The position numbers and the translations under genes are program-made. Positions 27,101 through 39,100 of a stretch of 64,000 nt of DNA are shown piece after piece. The stretch comes from the human T2T-CHM13v2.0 reference genome, Homo sapiens: the NCBI RefSeq assembly GCF_009914755.1, contig NC_060943.1. One strand, 5' to 3'. The notes under the pieces are model-generated. The model saw nothing but the letters and a program-made list of their open reading frames with translations, did not search any database and was not told the DNA's origin. The number at the start of each line of letters is the position of its first letter. The first letter of the stretch is position 1.

Positions 27101-30100
27101 TCTCAGCTGGGAGCGGCTCTGCCTCTGGTGGGGGCCCCTGGTGATGTCTGGAGATATTTTTAGTTGTCACCACTGGGGGTGCCCCTGCCAAGTAACGGGT
27201 GGAGGCTGGGGAGGCTGCTCAACAGGACACCCCCATCCCAGAGGCTGCTCCAGCCCCCGATGTCTGTGGTGCCTACGGGGAGACCCTGGTCTAGAGAGAA
27301 TGAATGAATGAGCTGAAGCATTTTGGGAGGCTGAGGCTGGAGGATTCCTGGAGGCTGGGAGTTGGAGAGCCTGTGCAACGTAGGACACCCCATCTCTACA
27401 AAAAATAGAAACAACTAAAAACAAAAATGAAACGCTTGGCACACAGCGACGGCCCAAGGAGGGAGAGGGCGAGGTCTCGCCATCACTAGCGCTGTCACTG
27501 GCTACGGATCCCAGCCACGCTGGGGTTTAGCCTCGCAGCCCCCGCCTGGGTCTCACGCGTTTCTCGGCAGGCTGTGCCGTGAATGGGATTTTTTTTTTCC
27601 CATTTTATCTTCGTATTGGTTTCTGATGGCACAGAGGAAAACAAGTGAAGCTCAGAGGGCTGGTCCCACGTGCAGCTGCCGGCTGAGCTCGTTAGATCTG
27701 AGGTCCTTCGAGGACACTCTGGGATTGCAGGCACATAACCACACCACTGCAAGGGACCCTTCTGGCACGTGGGCCTCCGTATCCGCTCCCTCCTCTCCTT
27801 CCGACGGGCGGGTCTCTGTGTGTTCATCTTCTGACCGTGTTTGCTGAGGCCTCACACCACAGGGCCACCGGGTGTGCATCCTGGTACCCATCACATTCTG
27901 AGAGGATGGCTTAGAAAGATACCTCCAGACTGGGAACACTGGAGAGGGGAGCCGTCCAGGGGGGATCAGGCCTTACCTGTGGGGCTTAACGTGTTACAGA
28001 AGAAACTTCCCAGGTAAGGAAGGAAACTGCTTCTCTGAGGTGCAGCTTTCCTGGATGGGCCTCTGGGAGCACACCCCACACGCAGCCTCACCTGCCACAG
28101 GCTACCTGCCCCTCTTGCCCTCCGCCTGCCATAGAGCCCCCAACCTGCCGCAGGGAAACCCCTCCAGCTGCCACAACCCCCACATCTGCCGTGGGGACCT
28201 CTACAACTGCTGCAGAGACCTCCTCCACCCTCCAAGGGAACTCCCTCCCTGCTGCTGGCACTTTACTGACCACGGGGCCCCTGCCTGCCACAGGGACAGC
28301 CCCACCTGGCACGGGACCACCTGCCACGGGGCCCCCACCTGCCACGGGGCCCCACCTGCCACGGGGCCCCACCTGCCACGGGGCCCCCACCTGCCACAGG
28401 GCCCCCACCTGCCACGGGGCCCCACCTGCCACGGGGCCCCCACCTGCCACAGGGCCCCCACCTGCCACGGGGCCCCACCTGCCACGGGGCCCCACCTGCC
28501 ACGGGCCCCCACCTGCTGCAGGGCAGCGGTCTGGCGCGTGTACTCCTCGTGCAGCTTCTCCACCAGGCTCTGTACCATACTGGGCTGCACGTGCAGCAGG
28601 ATGTCCCACCAGTCGTAGCCGGTCACCATGCAGTACTCCAGCAGGAAGAGCAGGTGCCGCAGCGCCAGCCCCACCTCCAGCGGGTGGCCCATGGAAGGTG
28701 AGAGGCGGAGCACGCTCAGCTGCCAGAGACAGAGCCCAAGGAGAGCCCGGTGAGATGGGGCTGCGCCCTCAGCCGGGAGAGGAATGGGGCCCTGGGGCTG
28801 CGGCACGTGTGTGGATCTGTGTGCGCGCACGCCCGTGTGTGGGCCTGTGTGCGCGCATGTGTCTGTAGCGTCTGTACCTTTCTGTCAGGGTCATGCACAA
28901 TGCCTCTGGGAACAGGGAAGGAAACCTCCCTGAGCCCCGACTGCACTGGATGCCGAGCCAGGCTTACACTCGTCTGCTTTACCTGAGGAGTCTACCCCGT
29001 GAAAGGCGGTCCTCTCAACAGCTCCTAGTTACGAAGCTCCTAATACGTGCTGTGGGCCACCCCACTGACCTCGCTCAACAAGACGAACCCATCACACAGA
29101 CAAGGCAGCGCAGGCAGGGGCTGGCGAGGGGCTTGCACCTGTGGTCCCTTCCCCCGGGGGCGCCTCCCTCTGGCACCCTCCCAGCCCCAGCCCCAGCCCC
29201 AGACCCACGTGCCCCAGCAGCTCGCCTTCCCCTGGTTGTCAATGCCCACCAGCCCCTGCCCCACGTGCCCCAGCAGCTCACCTTCCCCTGGTTGTCAATG
29301 CCCACCAGCCCCAGCCCCAGCCCCAGCCCCAGCCCCACGTGCCCCAGCAGCTCGCCTTCCCGTGGTTGTCAATGCCCACCAAGCCCAGCCCCACATGCCC
29401 CAGCAGCTCGCCTTCCCCTGGTTGTCAATGCCCACCAGCCCCAGCCCCACGTGCCCCAGCAGCTCACCTTCCCGTGGTTGTCAATGCCCACCAGCCCCAG
29501 CCCCAGCCCCAGCCCCACGTGCCCCAGCAGCTCACCTTTCCGTGGTTGTCAACGCCCACCAGCCCCAGCCCCAGCCCCACGTGCCCCAGCAGCTCACCTT
29601 CCCCTGGCTGTCAATGCCCCCCAGCCCCAGCCCCAGCGCCACGTGCCCCAGCAACTCACCTTCCCCTGGTTGTCAATGCTCAGCAGCTCACCTTCCCGTG
29701 GTTGTCAATGCCCACCGAGCCCAGCCCCACGTGCCCCAGCAGCTCACCTTCCCCTGGTTGTCAATGCCCACCAGCCCCAGCCCCAGCCCCACGGGCCCCA
29801 GCAGCTCGCCTTCCCCTGGTTGTCAATGCCCACCAGCCCCAGCCCCACGTGCCCCAGCAGCTCACCTTCCCGTGGTTGTCAATGCCCACCAGCCCCAGCC
29901 CCAGCCCCAGCCCCACGTGCCCCAGCAGCTCACCTTTCCCTGGTTGTCAATGTCCACCAGCCCCAGCCCCGGCCCCGGCCCCGGCCCCACGTGCCCCAGC
30001 AGCTCACCTTCCCCTGGCTGTCAATGCCCACCAGCCCCAGCCCCACGTGCCCCAGCAGCTCACCTTCCCGTGGTTGTCAATGCCCACCAGCCCCAGCCCC

Positions 30101-36100: not shown

Positions 36101-39100
36101 TCAATGCCCACCAACCCCAGCCCCACGTGCCCCAGCAGCTCGCCTTCCCCTGGTTGTCAATGCCCACCAACCCCAGCCCCACGTGCCCCAGCAGCTCGCC
36201 TTCCCCTGGTTGTCAATGCCCACCAGCCCCAGCCCCACGTGCCCCAGCAGCTCGCCTTTCCCTGGTTGTCAATGCCTACCAGGGCCACGCCCCAGCAGCT
36301 CGCCTTCCCCTGGTTGTCAATGCCCAGCAGCTCACCTTCCCGTGGTTGTCAATGCCCCCCAAGCCCAGCCCCACGTGCCCCAGCAGCTCACGTTCCCCTG
36401 GTTGTCAATGCCCACCAGCCCCAGCCCCACGTGCCCCAGCAGCTCGCCTTCCCCTGGTTGTCAATGCCCAGCAGCTCGCCTTCCCCTGGTTGTCAATGCC
36501 CACCAGCCCCAGCCCCACGTGCCCCAGCAGCTCGCCTTCCCCTGGCTGTCAATCCCCACCAGGGCCAGCCCCACGTGCCCCAGCAGCTCACCTTCCCCTG
36601 GTTGTCAATGCCCAGCAGCTCGCCTTCCCCTGGTTGTCAATGCCCACCAGCCCCGGCCCCACGTGCCCCAGCAGCTCACCTTCCCGTGGCTGTCAATCCC
36701 CACCAGGGCCAGTGACGTCCACGATAGCTGCATAGCCTTTAAGTGGACGGCGGGGCCCGCGGTGCGGGGGCGCTTCATGGCCGGCTCATCCACAGGCCTC
36801 GGGGCCGCAGAGCTGTAGAAGACGGCCATGGTCTGCAGTGAGAGCCGGTGCACGATGTGGACGCTGCCGTCGTGGAAGGCCAGGGCCAGCCCTGTGGGGC
36901 ACAGGCACTGCTTAGACATGGGCAGGGCCCAGGACACGCCCGCCGGGGGAGGGGCCTCCTGCTCTGCAGGGTGTGGAGAGCCGGGGCTGCCCATCCAGGG
37001 GGTCAGCCCCCGCCAATCGGCATCCAGCGCCCGTGCCCCCAGCCACTCTTTCTTTAGTTACACAGTCCCTGAGCACCAGGGGAGCAGGAGCCAGCAGCCT
37101 TGGCCACACTGCTCCCAGCCCCTCCCCGCCCCTCCCAGCTGGGCCCATGTCCTGGCTGACACGCCCCTCAAGGAGCGCAGGGGAGGGGGGCACTACAGGT
37201 GGGGGACCAAGGGTTGGGGCTCCTGGCGTCCCAAAGAGAGGCATCTTAGGGTGGTGGGCTGGGGCTGTCACTCACACTGGGGTCTGCCATTGTACGAGGG
37301 CCGGGGGGAGGTGGGGTCCAGAGCCCAAAGCTCATGGAAAAGAGAATATGAAAGGAGTCCCTGCAGTAGAGAGGCTGCAAAGCCGGGCGCGGTGGCTCAC
37401 GCCTGTAATCCTAGCACTTTGGGAGGCTGAGGCGGGCAGATTGCCTGAGCTCAGGGGTTCGAGACCAGCCTGGGCAACACCGGTGAAACCCCGTCTCTAC
37501 TAAAATACAAAAAATTAGCCGGGCGTGGCAGCACGCGCCTGTAGTCCCAGCTACTCGGGAGGCTGAGGCAGGAAGGAGAATCGCTTGAACCCAGGAGGCG
37601 GAGGTTGCAGTGAGCCGAGATCACACCACTGCACTCCAGCCTGGGCAACAGAATGAGACTCCAACTCAAAAAAAAAAAGAAAAAAAAAAATAGAGCCTGG
37701 AAAATGGAGCATAAACCAAGGGTTTTGGAGCAGGGAACTGCATCCCCTCAACCTCTCTGCAGGCTCTGAGGAACAGCCCTGAGCCCCGAGCAGGTTTTGA
37801 TAAATGCTCTTTCCAGGGAACCAGGGAAGAACGGGAACTGGGGGAAGAAAGGGCCTGAGCTAGGGCCGACTTGTCCACATTTTACAGCTGAGCAAATAGG
37901 GTAGGCACTGAAGAGTGTGCAGACTCACTCATGGGCACGGATGCCACGGTTTGAGCTCAGGACCACATTATGGCTGCTGCAGCACAGAGAGGACACATGC
38001 CGCCTACCCAGGAAGGAGTTCCACCAAGTTCCCCAGGCTCCCTTGTTGATTTGCAATGACTCTTTACATATTAAAGAACACTGGATCTGTCTGCCAGCCT
38101 CACAGATCCCGAAAGATGAGATCTGCCTCCTAATTGGGAACCCATCAGAACCCAGGAGGCTGAGCTCCTACAGCCCCATGGCCTGTGCTCAGAGCCCACG
38201 TCCTCTGGTGTGAGCTCCCACGACCCCGTGGCCTGTGCTCAGGGCCCAACTCCCCTGGTGTGAACTGAGGCCCCGCGTGGCTGCCGCTGGCTCCACCGTA
38301 CCGAGGCCAGGGTAGAACTGTGTGTCGCTGGCCACCTTGAGGTCGGTGTTGGTGAGCGAGATGGGCAGCTTGGGCAGCGCCACGGCCGACACACGGTCCA
38401 GATCGTTGGTGGCCGATAGGATCCGCCATTTGAGAATTGTGGGCTGTTTGTCGCCAACTGAAAAATCAGGGGCAGGAAAACAGGAAGGCAATGGAGTAAA
38501 GACAGGCTGAGACAGCCGCAGGAGTCCAGCATGGCCTGGTGTGCAACCTGCCCAGGGCCCTTCCCAGGTCTCATGCCGCCCTGCTCCCATGCCCAGAAGA
38601 CCAGGCCCGGCCAATCCGAGCGCTTCGTGCCTCGGCCACTCATTGGTTCCAGGATGGGCACGTGACCCAAGGTGGGCCCTGGGATTTCATGGAAACCTGT
38701 GGGCCGGCACCATCTCACCCCCGATGGGGCAGACAGTGGGGAGACGGCGCCACCTCAGACCTGCAGCCATGCAAACCCTAACACTCGCTCGGCCTTAGCC
38801 AGCTCAGCCGGGATTCCCATCCCTCCTCATCTACAATTCCAATAAAGCCATGCGGGATGGTCGCACCCACAGATCCGCTGCCTGACAGCCCCTGCGTGAA
38901 GACGCAGCTCCTCCCAACAGGGCAGAGACTTCTGGGAATCTCAGGCCAAGCCTTAGCAAATGTGACATGGCCGGGCACAGCAGCTCACATCTGCCACCCC
39001 AAGACTTTGGGAAGCCAACGCCAGAGGATGGCTTGAGTCCAGGAGTTCAAGACCAGCCTGGACAACACAGCAAGACCCCATTCTCTACAAAAAAAACACA

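What the first reader, a model, noticed from the sequence alone, without database searches (positions are those of the whole stretch)
29190..36710. MED16 intron 8 is a 7.5-kb tandem array of its own 5' splice site (~135-140 donor copies)
Seen: the repeat unit read on the transcribed (-) strand is GGGCTGGTGGGCATTGACAACCAGGGGAAG|GTGAGCTGCTGGGGCACGTGG, a copy of the last ~30 nt of exon 8 (GCCCTGGTGGGGATTGACAGCCACGGGAAG) plus the first ~25 nt of intron 8. Some units keep exon-identical sequence (e.g. 36544-36566, 31108-31130). AAG|GTGAGC matches the U1 consensus MAG|GTRAGT at 8/9 positions, so the pre-mRNA carries dozens of donors as strong as the real one. The first copy (+56 nt, GC) would frameshift. 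Every copy further out includes the in-frame TGA at 36605-36607, so all alternatives are unproductive. Inference: a copy-number-variable decoy-donor / U1 snRNP landing array that could tune MED16 dosage (NMD, intron retention, nuclear retention or telescripting). It also raises the question of how the most distal, authentic donor wins.
Basis: partly seen in the sequence, partly recalled or inferred. Interest (0 to 1): 0.9.

Follow-up and report, generated by a model that had tools for sequence, protein, structure and literature searches.

The report
MED16 intron VNTR repeating its splice donor
Intron 8 of human MED16 starts with a 7.5-kb minisatellite made of 136 tandem copies of the exon 8/intron 8 junction; 83 copies keep an intact splice donor, so the locus is a real but functionally untested example of a repeat type already described in ABCA7.

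Summary
A tandem array at window 29187-36712 (minus strand) starts inside MED16 exon 8 and repeats the last ~30 nt of the exon plus the first ~26 nt of the intron. There are 136-137 extra units, mostly 56 nt. Only 83 keep a GT donor. Their 11-nt U1-pairing core is identical to the real donor (one is GTGAGT). Another 51 carry GC at +1/+2 and 3 are otherwise disabled, so "135-140 donors" overstates the count. The frameshift at +56 and the in-frame TGA at 36605-36607 are correct.

The unit occurs nowhere else in CHM13. A 1242-bp block of 23 units is triplicated with no substitutions, so part of the expansion is recent and the length is probably polymorphic.

My best reading is a GC-rich subtelomeric VNTR born from the junction. 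It is tolerated because decoys lack any upstream acceptor and lie among G-runs, while only the real donor follows a true exon.

Dosage tuning is plausible by analogy with the ABCA7 intron 18 VNTR, but I could not test it. Telescripting is unsupported because the intron has no poly(A) hexamer.

This is a new member of a known kind. Intron 9 holds a smaller array of exon 9's donor.

The parts
36680..36891 (-). MED16 exon 8 (212 nt, ends in phase 0). Its last ~30 nt form the exonic half of the repeat unit.
   Evidence: RefSeq rows supplied with the finding; translation of the joined CDS gives an open 841-aa MED16.
36674..36682 (-). Authentic exon 8 donor AAG|GTGAGC, which is unit 0 of the array.
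   Evidence: U1 duplex energy is -9.6 kcal/mol, rank 13-14 of the 30 annotated donors in the window.
29187..36712 (-). Compound minisatellite of 136-137 extra units (7526 nt). Core unit: GCATTGACAACCAGGGGAAG|GTGAGCTGCTGGGGCACGTGGGGCTGGGGCTGGTGG. It holds 83 intact GT donors, 51 GC variants and 3 disabled copies. A nested (GGGGCY)n hexamer tract produces the 62/68/74/80-nt units.
   Evidence: The unit is unique to this locus in CHM13.
36618..36626 (-). First copy at +56, AAG|GCGAGC. It is a GC variant and use would shift the frame.
36605..36607 (-). First in-frame stop (TGA) on read-through from exon 8, at +72.
36586..36594 (-). First intact GT decoy at +88, AAG|GTGAGC. It is the only intact GT decoy within about 300 nt of the real donor, so it is the most likely cryptic donor. 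Use would extend exon 8 to 300 nt and include the TGA.
35079..36320 (-). Higher-order block, copy A (23 units, 1242 bp).
   Evidence: identical to copy B at 1242 of 1242 positions.
33837..35078 (-). Higher-order block, copy B.
32595..33836 (-). Higher-order block, copy C. It is identical to A and B over its first 1145 nt, after which the ungapped alignment falls out of register (unit 74 is 80 nt against 74 nt in A and B).
30373..31018 (-). Older partial copy of the same block (units 105-116 follow the same order of unit types).
   Evidence: Unit table; TRF rows 30662-30893 and 30797-30997 match those at 33152-33383 and 33287-33487.
28720..29186 (-). Unique 3' end of intron 8, with the polypyrimidine tract and the acceptor for exon 9.
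   Evidence: acceptor upstream pyrimidine fraction 0.70.
28513..28719 (-). MED16 exon 9, the acceptor partner of the donors.
   Evidence: RefSeq rows.

Best explanation
This is a locally born, GC-rich subtelomeric minisatellite (VNTR).

Origin. A 56-bp segment straddling the MED16 exon 8/intron 8 junction (about 30 nt of exon plus about 26 nt of intron) was tandemly duplicated. Unequal exchange or replication slippage then expanded it to 136-137 extra units (7.5 kb) in CHM13. Expansion was layered: a nested (GGGGCY)n hexamer tract, 24-nt deletion variants that give the 32-nt units, and a very recent triplication of a 23-unit, 1242-bp block.

What the pre-mRNA carries. It holds 83 decoy donors whose U1-pairing core is identical to the real one.

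Why the gene still works (inferred, not shown). I think the decoys are largely ignored for three reasons.
(i) Only the real donor is paired across a normal 212-nt exon with a 3' splice site. The array contains no acceptor-like sequence, so no decoy can be exon-defined.
(ii) Every decoy has dense G-runs on both sides (likely hnRNP H/F sites, G4-prone). The real donor has ordinary exon sequence upstream and the G-runs only downstream, where such runs act as enhancers.
(iii) The copies nearest the exon are mostly the GC variant.

Expected cost. Occasional use of a decoy, most likely the one at +88, would give a transcript with a premature stop that NMD should remove. The expected net effect is a small loss of MED16 output and slower intron removal, scaling with array length. 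That is a tolerated mutational by-product, not a selected regulator.
For: Shown directly:
- Array structure, and the junction as its first unit.
- The unit is unique to this locus in the whole assembly.
- Block copies are identical at 1242/1242 and over the first 1145 nt.
- Donor counts.
- U1 duplex energy is -9.6 kcal/mol for GT copies and the real donor, against -5.2 for GC copies. The U1 5' end was read from a CHM13 U1 gene.
- None of the 415 AG dinucleotides in the array has at least 60% pyrimidines in the 20 nt upstream (maximum 0.50). The 29 real acceptors in the window range 0.55-0.95, median 0.70.
- G-runs in the 100 nt upstream number 3 for the real donor and a median of 9 (range 6-10) for decoys. 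MED16 exons carry 0-2.6 G-runs per 100 nt and the array carries 8.4.
- In the first 500 nt, 7 of 10 units are GC and 2 are intact GT.
- All decoys lead to a premature stop.

Context:
- VNTRs with GC above 60% and units above 15 bp are 21-fold enriched within 5 Mb of chromosome ends (PMC7608644). This array is 67-69% GC and lies about 0.84 Mb from the 19p end.
- The window holds a dozen other minisatellites.
- The next intron of MED16 shows the same donor-repeat architecture, and so does ABCA7 intron 18 about 170 kb away. In all three the exon-adjacent copy is the annotated donor. Recurrence fits a mutational process acting on G/C-rich intron starts.
- G-runs in a downstream intron act as hnRNP H/F-dependent enhancers (PMC10334793).
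Against: - No expression data were available, so "largely ignored" is inferred only from the RefSeq annotation, which lists no alternative exon 8 end. NMD-degraded products would be invisible there.
- Published experiments say that with two equally strong 5' splice sites at least 45 nt apart, the intron-proximal one is used almost exclusively (PMC3413131). On that rule the decoys should win, so silencing of 83 perfect sites may need more than exon definition.
- Predicted local RNA accessibility does not favour the real donor. Its probability of being unpaired is 0.005, against a decoy median of 0.017.
- Position +2 is by far the most variable core position: 39% of copies are non-T, the next most variable position is at 16%, and every other position from -3 to +8 varies in at most 1 of 137 copies. 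That could reflect selection against live decoys, which would mean they are not harmless.
- In ABCA7, array length does alter splicing and expression.
Confidence: 0.6

Rival explanations
1. The array acts as a length-variable decoy-donor and U1 landing pad with a measurable effect on MED16 dosage. Longer alleles divert more transcripts to decoy donors (then NMD), or delay or prevent intron 8 removal, so allele length tunes MED16 output.
For: - 83 decoys have the same U1 pairing energy as the real donor, and all are unproductive.
- The intron-proximal rule predicts that decoys compete strongly.
- The ABCA7 donor-containing VNTR lowers expression and alters splicing as it lengthens, and one-unit retention through a cryptic donor was seen in cDNA.
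- Enrichment of the donor-killing +2 T>C change, especially next to the exon, would fit selection against live decoys.
Against: - No RNA or population data support it here.
- RefSeq lists no alternative exon 8 end.
- There are no acceptors in the array and the decoys sit in an intron-like G-run context.
- The excess of GC units near the exon is not statistically independent. The same runs of GC units recur inside the block copies far from the exon, and the GC variant is a CpG site, so T/C variation there may be mutational.
- No paper in the searched library links MED16 to a VNTR, eQTL or sQTL.
- U1 is very abundant in the nucleus (general knowledge, not checked here), so any trans sponge effect should be negligible.
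Confidence: 0.22
2. The active part is the G-rich half of the unit, not the donor. The array would be a 7.5-kb G-quadruplex and R-loop-prone, hnRNP H/F-binding tract on the non-template strand. It would slow RNA polymerase II or act as a giant intronic splicing enhancer for the upstream real donor. It would also make the locus unstable.
For: - 88 non-overlapping G4 motifs on the transcribed-sense strand and 0 on the other.
- G makes up 48.7% of that strand and GC skew is about +0.44 over 7.5 kb.
- 8.4 G-runs per 100 nt.
- Downstream G-runs enhance splicing through hnRNP H/F.
- VNTRs are linked to R-loops and mutability in PMC7608644.
- Somatic tandem-repeat insertions are reported in a MED16 intron in tumours.
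Against: These are motif counts only, with no G4, R-loop or CLIP data. A handful of G-runs is enough for enhancer activity, so 600 of them need no functional explanation. This model is compatible with the best explanation rather than exclusive of it.
Confidence: 0.1
3. The array is an intragenic cluster of E-boxes that binds bHLH-ZIP factors (MYC/MAX, USF, TFE family) and works as a DNA-level enhancer or factor sink whose strength scales with copy number.
For: There are 87 CACGTG sites in the array against 1.7 expected from base composition. The array holds 87 of the 121 sites in the whole 64-kb window.
Against: The E-box is simply part of the copied intron start (GGGGCACGTGGGG) and hitch-hikes with the unit. 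Nineteen copies have already decayed to CATGTG, the CpG-to-TpG product. That pattern suggests the central CpG is methylated in the germ line, and methylation is generally thought to impair binding by these factors (general knowledge, not checked here). CpG observed/expected is 0.30, so this is not a CpG island.
Confidence: 0.04
4. The extreme length is an assembly artefact. The perfectly identical 1242-bp blocks would be over-collapsed or over-expanded in CHM13, and the true allele would be much shorter.
For: Two blocks are identical at 1242/1242 and a third over its first 1145 nt. From memory and unverified, MED16 spans about 6 kb less in GRCh38.
Against: The whole array (7.5 kb) is shorter than typical HiFi reads, so single reads should span it with unique flanks (general knowledge of how this assembly was made). 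The third block carries its own length change and an older partial copy exists, as expected from real stepwise expansion. Reads are switched off for this job, so I could not check directly.
Confidence: 0.03

Closest known systems
ABCA7 intron 18 VNTR (De Roeck et al. 2018, PMC5954066)
   Same: - An intronic VNTR on 19p13.3 that abuts the exon and includes the canonical donor as its first unit.
- Every unit carries a GT-containing donor-like sequence.
- The exon-adjacent copy is the one normally used.
- Alleles range from about 0.3 kb to over 10 kb.
- Cryptic use of the next unit gives an out-of-frame transcript.
- In CHM13 it is 2267 bp, about 89 units.
   Different: - The unit is 25 bp against 56 bp.
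- It copies about 4 nt of exon against about 30 nt.
- The transcribed strand is C-rich (60% C), whereas here it is G-rich (49% G) and G4-prone.
- ABCA7 donors are weak (CCT|GTGAGC, U1 duplex -4.4 to -5.8 kcal/mol), against -9.6 here.
- ABCA7 has measured effects on splicing, expression and disease risk. MED16 has none measured.
Experimental tandem 5' splice-site substrates (Hodson, Hudson, Cherny and Eperon 2012, PMC3413131, and work cited there)
   Same: Identical strong 5' splice sites in series on one pre-mRNA. U1 can occupy several at once, and surplus U1 is removed at complex A.
   Different: In those substrates the intron-proximal site wins almost completely once the spacing is at least 45 nt. 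Here the annotated mRNA uses the most intron-distal of 84 sites, across 7.5 kb, in a natural gene with exon definition and co-transcriptional splicing.
GC-rich subtelomeric VNTR class (Linthorst et al. 2020, PMC7608644)
   Same: GC above 60%, unit above 15 bp, within 5 Mb of a chromosome end, intragenic, and expected to be highly length-polymorphic.
   Different: Most members are anonymous intronic sequence. This one is built from a functional splice junction.
U1-motif-dependent chromatin retention and U1 telescripting (Yin et al., bioRxiv 10.1101/310433)
   Same: Unused U1 recognition motifs in a transcript can recruit U1 snRNP without splicing.
   Different: Those effects concern lncRNAs or exported reporters, or the suppression of nearby cryptic poly(A) sites. 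Here the motifs are removed with the intron, and intron 8 has no poly(A) hexamer.
MED16 intron 9 mini-array (this window, 28270-28516)
   Same: The same gene, the next intron, and the same architecture: tandem copies of the exon's own donor starting at the junction, with the exon-adjacent copy used.
   Different: Units of 17-18 nt and only 11 extra donors. The spacing is below the 45-nt threshold in PMC3413131. The reading frame stays open, and 5 copies would give in-frame insertions.

Membership tests
Minisatellite / VNTR, GC-rich subtelomeric class | Head-to-tail tandem units of roughly 10-100 bp | tested here: met
   TRF periods of 56 and its multiples across 29187-36712; 137 parsed units.
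Minisatellite / VNTR, GC-rich subtelomeric class | GC above 60%, unit above 15 bp, within 5 Mb of a chromosome arm end (PMC7608644) | tested here: met
   GC is 0.67-0.69 and the unit is 56 bp. The array lies at chr19:835,187-842,712 from the operators' window coordinates, about 0.84 Mb from the p-arm end.
Minisatellite / VNTR, GC-rich subtelomeric class | Copy number varies between individuals | not testable with these tools
   No other human assemblies or reads were available. Indirect support: triplicated blocks with zero substitutions, and somatic insertions reported in a MED16 intron.
Donor-containing intronic VNTR (ABCA7 intron 18 type) | The array abuts the exon, and the canonical donor is part of its first unit | tested here: met
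   The array extends to 36712 inside exon 8, and unit 0 is the real junction.
Donor-containing intronic VNTR (ABCA7 intron 18 type) | Repeat units carry GT donor-like sequence | tested here: met
   84 of 137 copies have GT and 83 have an intact 9-mer.
Donor-containing intronic VNTR (ABCA7 intron 18 type) | Cryptic use of unit donors, and length-dependent change in splicing or expression | not testable with these tools
   No RNA or genotype data. RefSeq lists no alternative exon 8 end.
U1 telescripting target | Cryptic poly(A) signals near the U1 sites that need suppressing | tested here: not met
   No AATAAA, ATTAAA, AGTAAA or TATAAA on the transcribed strand anywhere in intron 8.
U1 telescripting target | U1 snRNP occupancy of the sites | not testable with these tools
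   Only pairing energy was computed.
Recursive splice site array | A juxtaposed 3' splice site (polypyrimidine tract plus AG) directly upstream of a regenerated GT donor | tested here: not met
   AG|GT is present in every unit. However, the maximum pyrimidine fraction upstream of any AG in the array is 0.50, against 0.55-0.95 for real acceptors.
G-quadruplex / R-loop-prone tract | G4 motifs and positive GC skew on the non-template strand | tested here: met
   88 G4 motifs on the transcribed-sense strand against 0 on the other; skew about +0.44. Actual structure formation was not tested.
E-box (CACGTG) binding-site cluster | Clustered canonical E-boxes that are occupied and unmethylated | tested here: inconclusive
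   87 motifs are present. Occupancy and methylation are not testable here. The 19 CATGTG decay products suggest germ-line methylation.

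The most novel reading that the evidence does not exclude
The array is a natural, common, length-polymorphic allelic series in which up to about 80 perfect copies of a strong 5' splice site are actively silenced, against the intron-proximal rule. 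Silencing would come from the unit's own G-run/G4 and hnRNP context plus exon definition. Residual decoy use or delayed intron removal would make array length a cis determinant of MED16 (Mediator tail subunit) dosage in humans. Selection would have favoured the GT>GC disarming change in the units closest to the exon.
Probability: 0.15. Interest if true: 0.7.

Novelty: new member of a known kind. Interest (0 to 1): 0.48.

Why it matters
If array length affects MED16 output, a common structural polymorphism that short reads cannot see would modulate a Mediator subunit. MED16 would then join ABCA7 as a second case where a repeat of the splice donor itself acts on splicing.

Whatever its function, the locus is a ready-made natural test of how a 5' splice site is chosen among many identical candidates. 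The exonic 30 nt, the 11-nt U1 site and the first 26 intronic nt are all the same in dozens of copies, yet the annotated mRNA uses the copy the in-vitro proximity rule would disfavour.

If it is neutral, it shows how much decoy load exon definition can absorb.

Tried and rejected
- **RNA structure masking of decoys.** Local folding (window 150, span 100) gives the real donor a lower unpaired probability (0.005) than the decoy median (0.017), so accessibility does not explain the choice. G-quadruplexes were not modelled.
- **Telescripting.** There is no poly(A) hexamer in intron 8.
- **Recursive splicing or pseudo-exons inside the array.** There is no acceptor-like AG.
- **Structured RNA.** No Rfam family reaches its gathering score in 28000-37500.
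- **PRDM9 hotspot 13-mer (CCNCCNTNNCCNC).** Absent on both strands of the array.
- **Dispersed repeat or segmental copy.** All 35 genome matches fall inside this array.
- **Literature on this locus.** "MED16" with "VNTR" returned 0 papers. "MED16" with "tandem repeat" and "intron" returned only a pan-cancer somatic-insertion preprint. "MED16" with "intron retention" returned nothing relevant.
- **Supplementary tables of three VNTR papers.** One paper has no supplementary files held as text, and the two that could be searched do not mention MED16.
- **Selection on the +2 position.** It is the most variable core site and GC units are concentrated near the exon. I do not count this as evidence of selection. 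Units are not independent, because block copies repeat the same runs, and the C state creates a CpG.
- **Not possible here.** Comparison with GRCh38 or ape orthologues, and MaxEntScan or SpliceAI scoring. One paper search failed on a syntax rule.

Full report
**1. What is in the sequence**

MED16 lies on the minus strand, and intron 8 is window 28720-36679 (7960 nt). Tandem Repeats Finder reports one compound array from 29186/29187 to 36712, with a period of 56 and multiples of it. Exon 8 is 36680-36891, so the array begins about 33 nt inside the exon. The real exon/intron junction is its first unit.

Read on the transcribed strand, the consensus unit is GCATTGACAACCAGGGGAAG|GTGAGCTGCTGGGGCACGTGGGGCTGGGGCTGGTGG. 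The real junction reads GGATTGACAGCCACGGGAAG|GTGAGCTGCTGGGGCACGTGGGGCCGGGGCTGGTGG.

Splitting at the TTGA[CT]A anchor gives 137 units including the real one. A slightly looser anchor resolves one double unit and gives 138. Unit lengths are:

| Length (nt) | Units |
|---|---|
| 56 | 77 |
| 32 | 20 |
| 62 | 10 |
| 68 | 10 |
| 74 | 8 |
| 48 | 7 |
| 41 | 2 |
| 80 | 1 |

One further 112-nt entry is two 56-nt units with a degenerate anchor.

The 62-80 nt classes come from a nested (GGGGCY)n hexamer tract. The 32-nt class is a 24-nt internal deletion. The array ends at about 29187. A unique 467-nt stretch follows, carrying the polypyrimidine tract and the acceptor of exon 9.

**2. How many donors**

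Among the 137 copies, position +2 is T in 84, C in 51 and G in 2. Of the 84 GT copies, 82 read AAG|GTGAGC, one reads AAG|GTGAGT and one reads AAC|GTGAGC. That makes 83 intact GT decoys, 51 GC variants and 3 disabled copies. "Dozens as strong as the real one" is correct.

I read the U1 5' end (AUACUUACCUG) from a U1 gene of this same assembly and computed duplex energies. The real donor and every GT copy give -9.6 kcal/mol, which ranks 13-14 of the 30 annotated donors in the window. The GC copies give -5.2, near the bottom of the real range.

**3. Coding consequences**

Joining the annotated coding exons gives an open 841-codon MED16.
- Exon 8 ends in phase 0, and read-through meets TGA at 36607-36605, at +72.
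- The first copy at +56 is GC, shifts the frame and stops at once.
- The first GT copy is at +88, and the next intact one is at +344.
- Every donor from +88 onward includes the TGA.

**4. Origin and age**

A 224-nt piece of the array finds 35 matches in the whole CHM13 assembly. All lie within chr19:835,193-842,695, which is inside this array. The repeat was therefore born here from the junction itself.

A block of 23 units (1242 bp) occurs three times in tandem. Copies A (35079-36320) and B (33837-35078) are identical at 1242 of 1242 positions. Copy C is identical over its first 1145 nt, after which the ungapped alignment falls out of register; unit 74 in C is 80 nt against 74 nt in A and B. 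An older partial copy lies at about 30373-31018.

There are no substitutions across about 3.6 kb of triplicated sequence. At a commonly quoted point-mutation rate of about 1.2e-8 per base per generation, my own estimate puts the triplication under roughly 70,000 generations old. Given how fast minisatellites change, it is probably far younger.

Length polymorphism is therefore very likely, but I could not observe it. A preprint reports somatic tandem-repeat insertions in "the MED16 intron (chr19:878,845-879,150)" in gynaecological tumours. By my unverified memory of GRCh38 gene coordinates, that interval falls at the distal end of this array, and the GRCh38 gene is about 6 kb shorter than the 31.9 kb seen here.

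**5. Setting**

The array is 67-69% GC and lies about 0.84 Mb from the end of 19p. VNTRs with more than 60% GC and units above 15 bp are 21-fold enriched within 5 Mb of chromosome ends (PMC7608644). The 64-kb window holds about a dozen other minisatellites.

I scanned all 30 annotated donors for copies of themselves in their own intron. Only two have any: MED16 exon 8 (134 copies of a 14-mer at no more than 1 mismatch) and MED16 exon 9.

Intron 9 starts with 11 further exact CAG|GTGGGG copies spaced 17-18 nt apart.

ABCA7 intron 18, about 170 kb away, has the published version of this architecture. [quoted passage not shown] Its length lowers expression and changes splicing, and one-unit retention through a cryptic donor was seen in cDNA. 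I located it in CHM13 with the paper's primers. It is 2267 bp, about 89 units, 60% C on the transcribed strand, with weak donors (CCT|GTGAGC, -4.4 to -5.8 kcal/mol).

That makes three donor-repeat arrays in one subtelomeric stretch. In each, the exon-adjacent copy is the annotated donor.

**6. How the real donor could win**

[quoted passage not shown] Both sites can hold U1 in complex E (PMC3413131). By that rule the decoys nearest exon 9 should win.

Three features of the sequence separate the real donor from its copies.

- **No acceptors in the array.** None of its 415 AG dinucleotides has more than 50% pyrimidines in the 20 nt upstream, against 55-95% for the 29 real acceptors in the window. 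Only the real donor is paired across a normal 212-nt exon, and only the +88 decoy lies within the usual size range of an internal exon.
- **G-run context.** The real donor has 3 G-runs in the 100 nt upstream, the density of MED16 exons, and 7 downstream. Decoys have a median of 9 upstream (range 6-10) and 8 downstream. G-runs in a downstream intron enhance splicing through hnRNP H/F (PMC10334793). That they silence when upstream in exonic position is established knowledge I did not re-verify.
- **GC variants near the exon.** Seven of the first ten units are the GC variant and one is AAC|GT.

Predicted RNA accessibility does not help, because the real donor is among the least accessible.

This mechanism is inferred. 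There is also a survivorship argument. A junction duplication in which the downstream copy was used would shift the frame of MED16 and be lost. The existence of the array therefore suggests that the upstream choice is robust at this locus.

**7. Other readings**

- **Dosage tuning by decoy use or slow intron removal.** Plausible by the ABCA7 precedent but untested.
- **Telescripting.** Not supported, because intron 8 has no poly(A) hexamer.
- **G4 and R-loop tract.** The G-rich half gives 88 G4 motifs on the sense strand and none on the other, with a GC skew of about +0.44. An R-loop, G4 or hnRNP role is possible and compatible with the main explanation.
- **E-box cluster.** The unit carries a canonical E-box, 87 in all against 1.7 expected. 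It is a passenger of the copied intron start, and 19 copies have decayed to CATGTG.
- **Selection at +2.** This position is the most variable core position: 39% non-T, 16% at the next position, and at most 1 of 137 at every other position from -3 to +8. That is suggestive of selection against live decoys. It is not decisive, because units share ancestry and the C state is a CpG.
- **Structured RNA.** No Rfam family matches.

**8. Verdict**

The thing is a junction-derived, donor-carrying intronic VNTR, which makes it a new member of the kind first described for ABCA7. It differs in having a longer unit, strong donors, a G-rich transcript and more exon copied.

No paper in the searchable library links MED16 to a VNTR. 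Function is untested. I put about 0.6 on a tolerated by-product with at most a small length-dependent cost, and about 0.2 on a measurable dosage effect. Interest is moderate, mainly as a natural test of 5' splice-site choice and as a candidate hidden sQTL or eQTL.

Noticed in passing
window 28270-28516 (minus strand), start of MED16 intron 9: A second donor-repeat array. About 14 units of 17-18 nt (GGCAG|GTGGGGCCCCGT) start at the exon 9 junction. They give 11 further exact CAG|GTGGGG donors at +17 to +207, each with the same U1 duplex energy as the real one (-10.8 kcal/mol). The reading frame stays open through the array. Donors at +51, +69, +87, +174 and +207 would give in-frame insertions of 17-69 codons. 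RefSeq lists only the exon-adjacent donor.
   Followed up: partly
window 21836-23477 (MED16 intron 12, which spans 21330-23485): A 1.6-kb array (23-bp unit, about 71 copies, plus a G-tract at 23016-23477 on the plus strand). On the transcribed strand it is a pure pyrimidine (CT-rich) tract. It starts about 8 nt downstream of the weak exon 12 donor (GCT|GTGAGG, U1 duplex -4.9 kcal/mol).
   Followed up: no
whole window: Minisatellites are very dense. Arrays lie at 1379-1698, 3722-4141, 11191-11701, 16637-17060, 20787-21074, 24492-24673, 39925-40252, 45759-45962, 48315-48831, 49156-49423 and 57223-57532, among others. This is typical of the GC-rich subtelomeric VNTR class.
   Followed up: partly
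window 32686-32720 and seven similar sites in the array (for example 33934-33962 and 35176-35204): Nested (GGGGCC)n tracts on the transcribed strand, up to 5 units, with (GGGGCY)n up to 6. This is the same hexamer as the C9orf72 repeat, but it is short here.
   Followed up: no
window 29187-36679: There are 87 canonical E-boxes (CACGTG) inside the array, against 1.7 expected from composition. That is 87 of the 121 in the whole window. Nineteen further copies read CATGTG, the CpG-decay product.
   Followed up: partly
L013 603-2869 (CHM13 chr19:1,012,102-1,014,368): The ABCA7 intron 18 VNTR in CHM13 is 2267 bp, about 89 units of 25 bp. About 70 units carry GTGAG donor-like sequence. All have weak exon-side positions.
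   Followed up: yes
window 29187-36712, plus strand: Read antisense, each unit is C-rich and ends in CCCCAG. An antisense transcript would therefore see an array of acceptor-like sites rather than donors.
   Followed up: no
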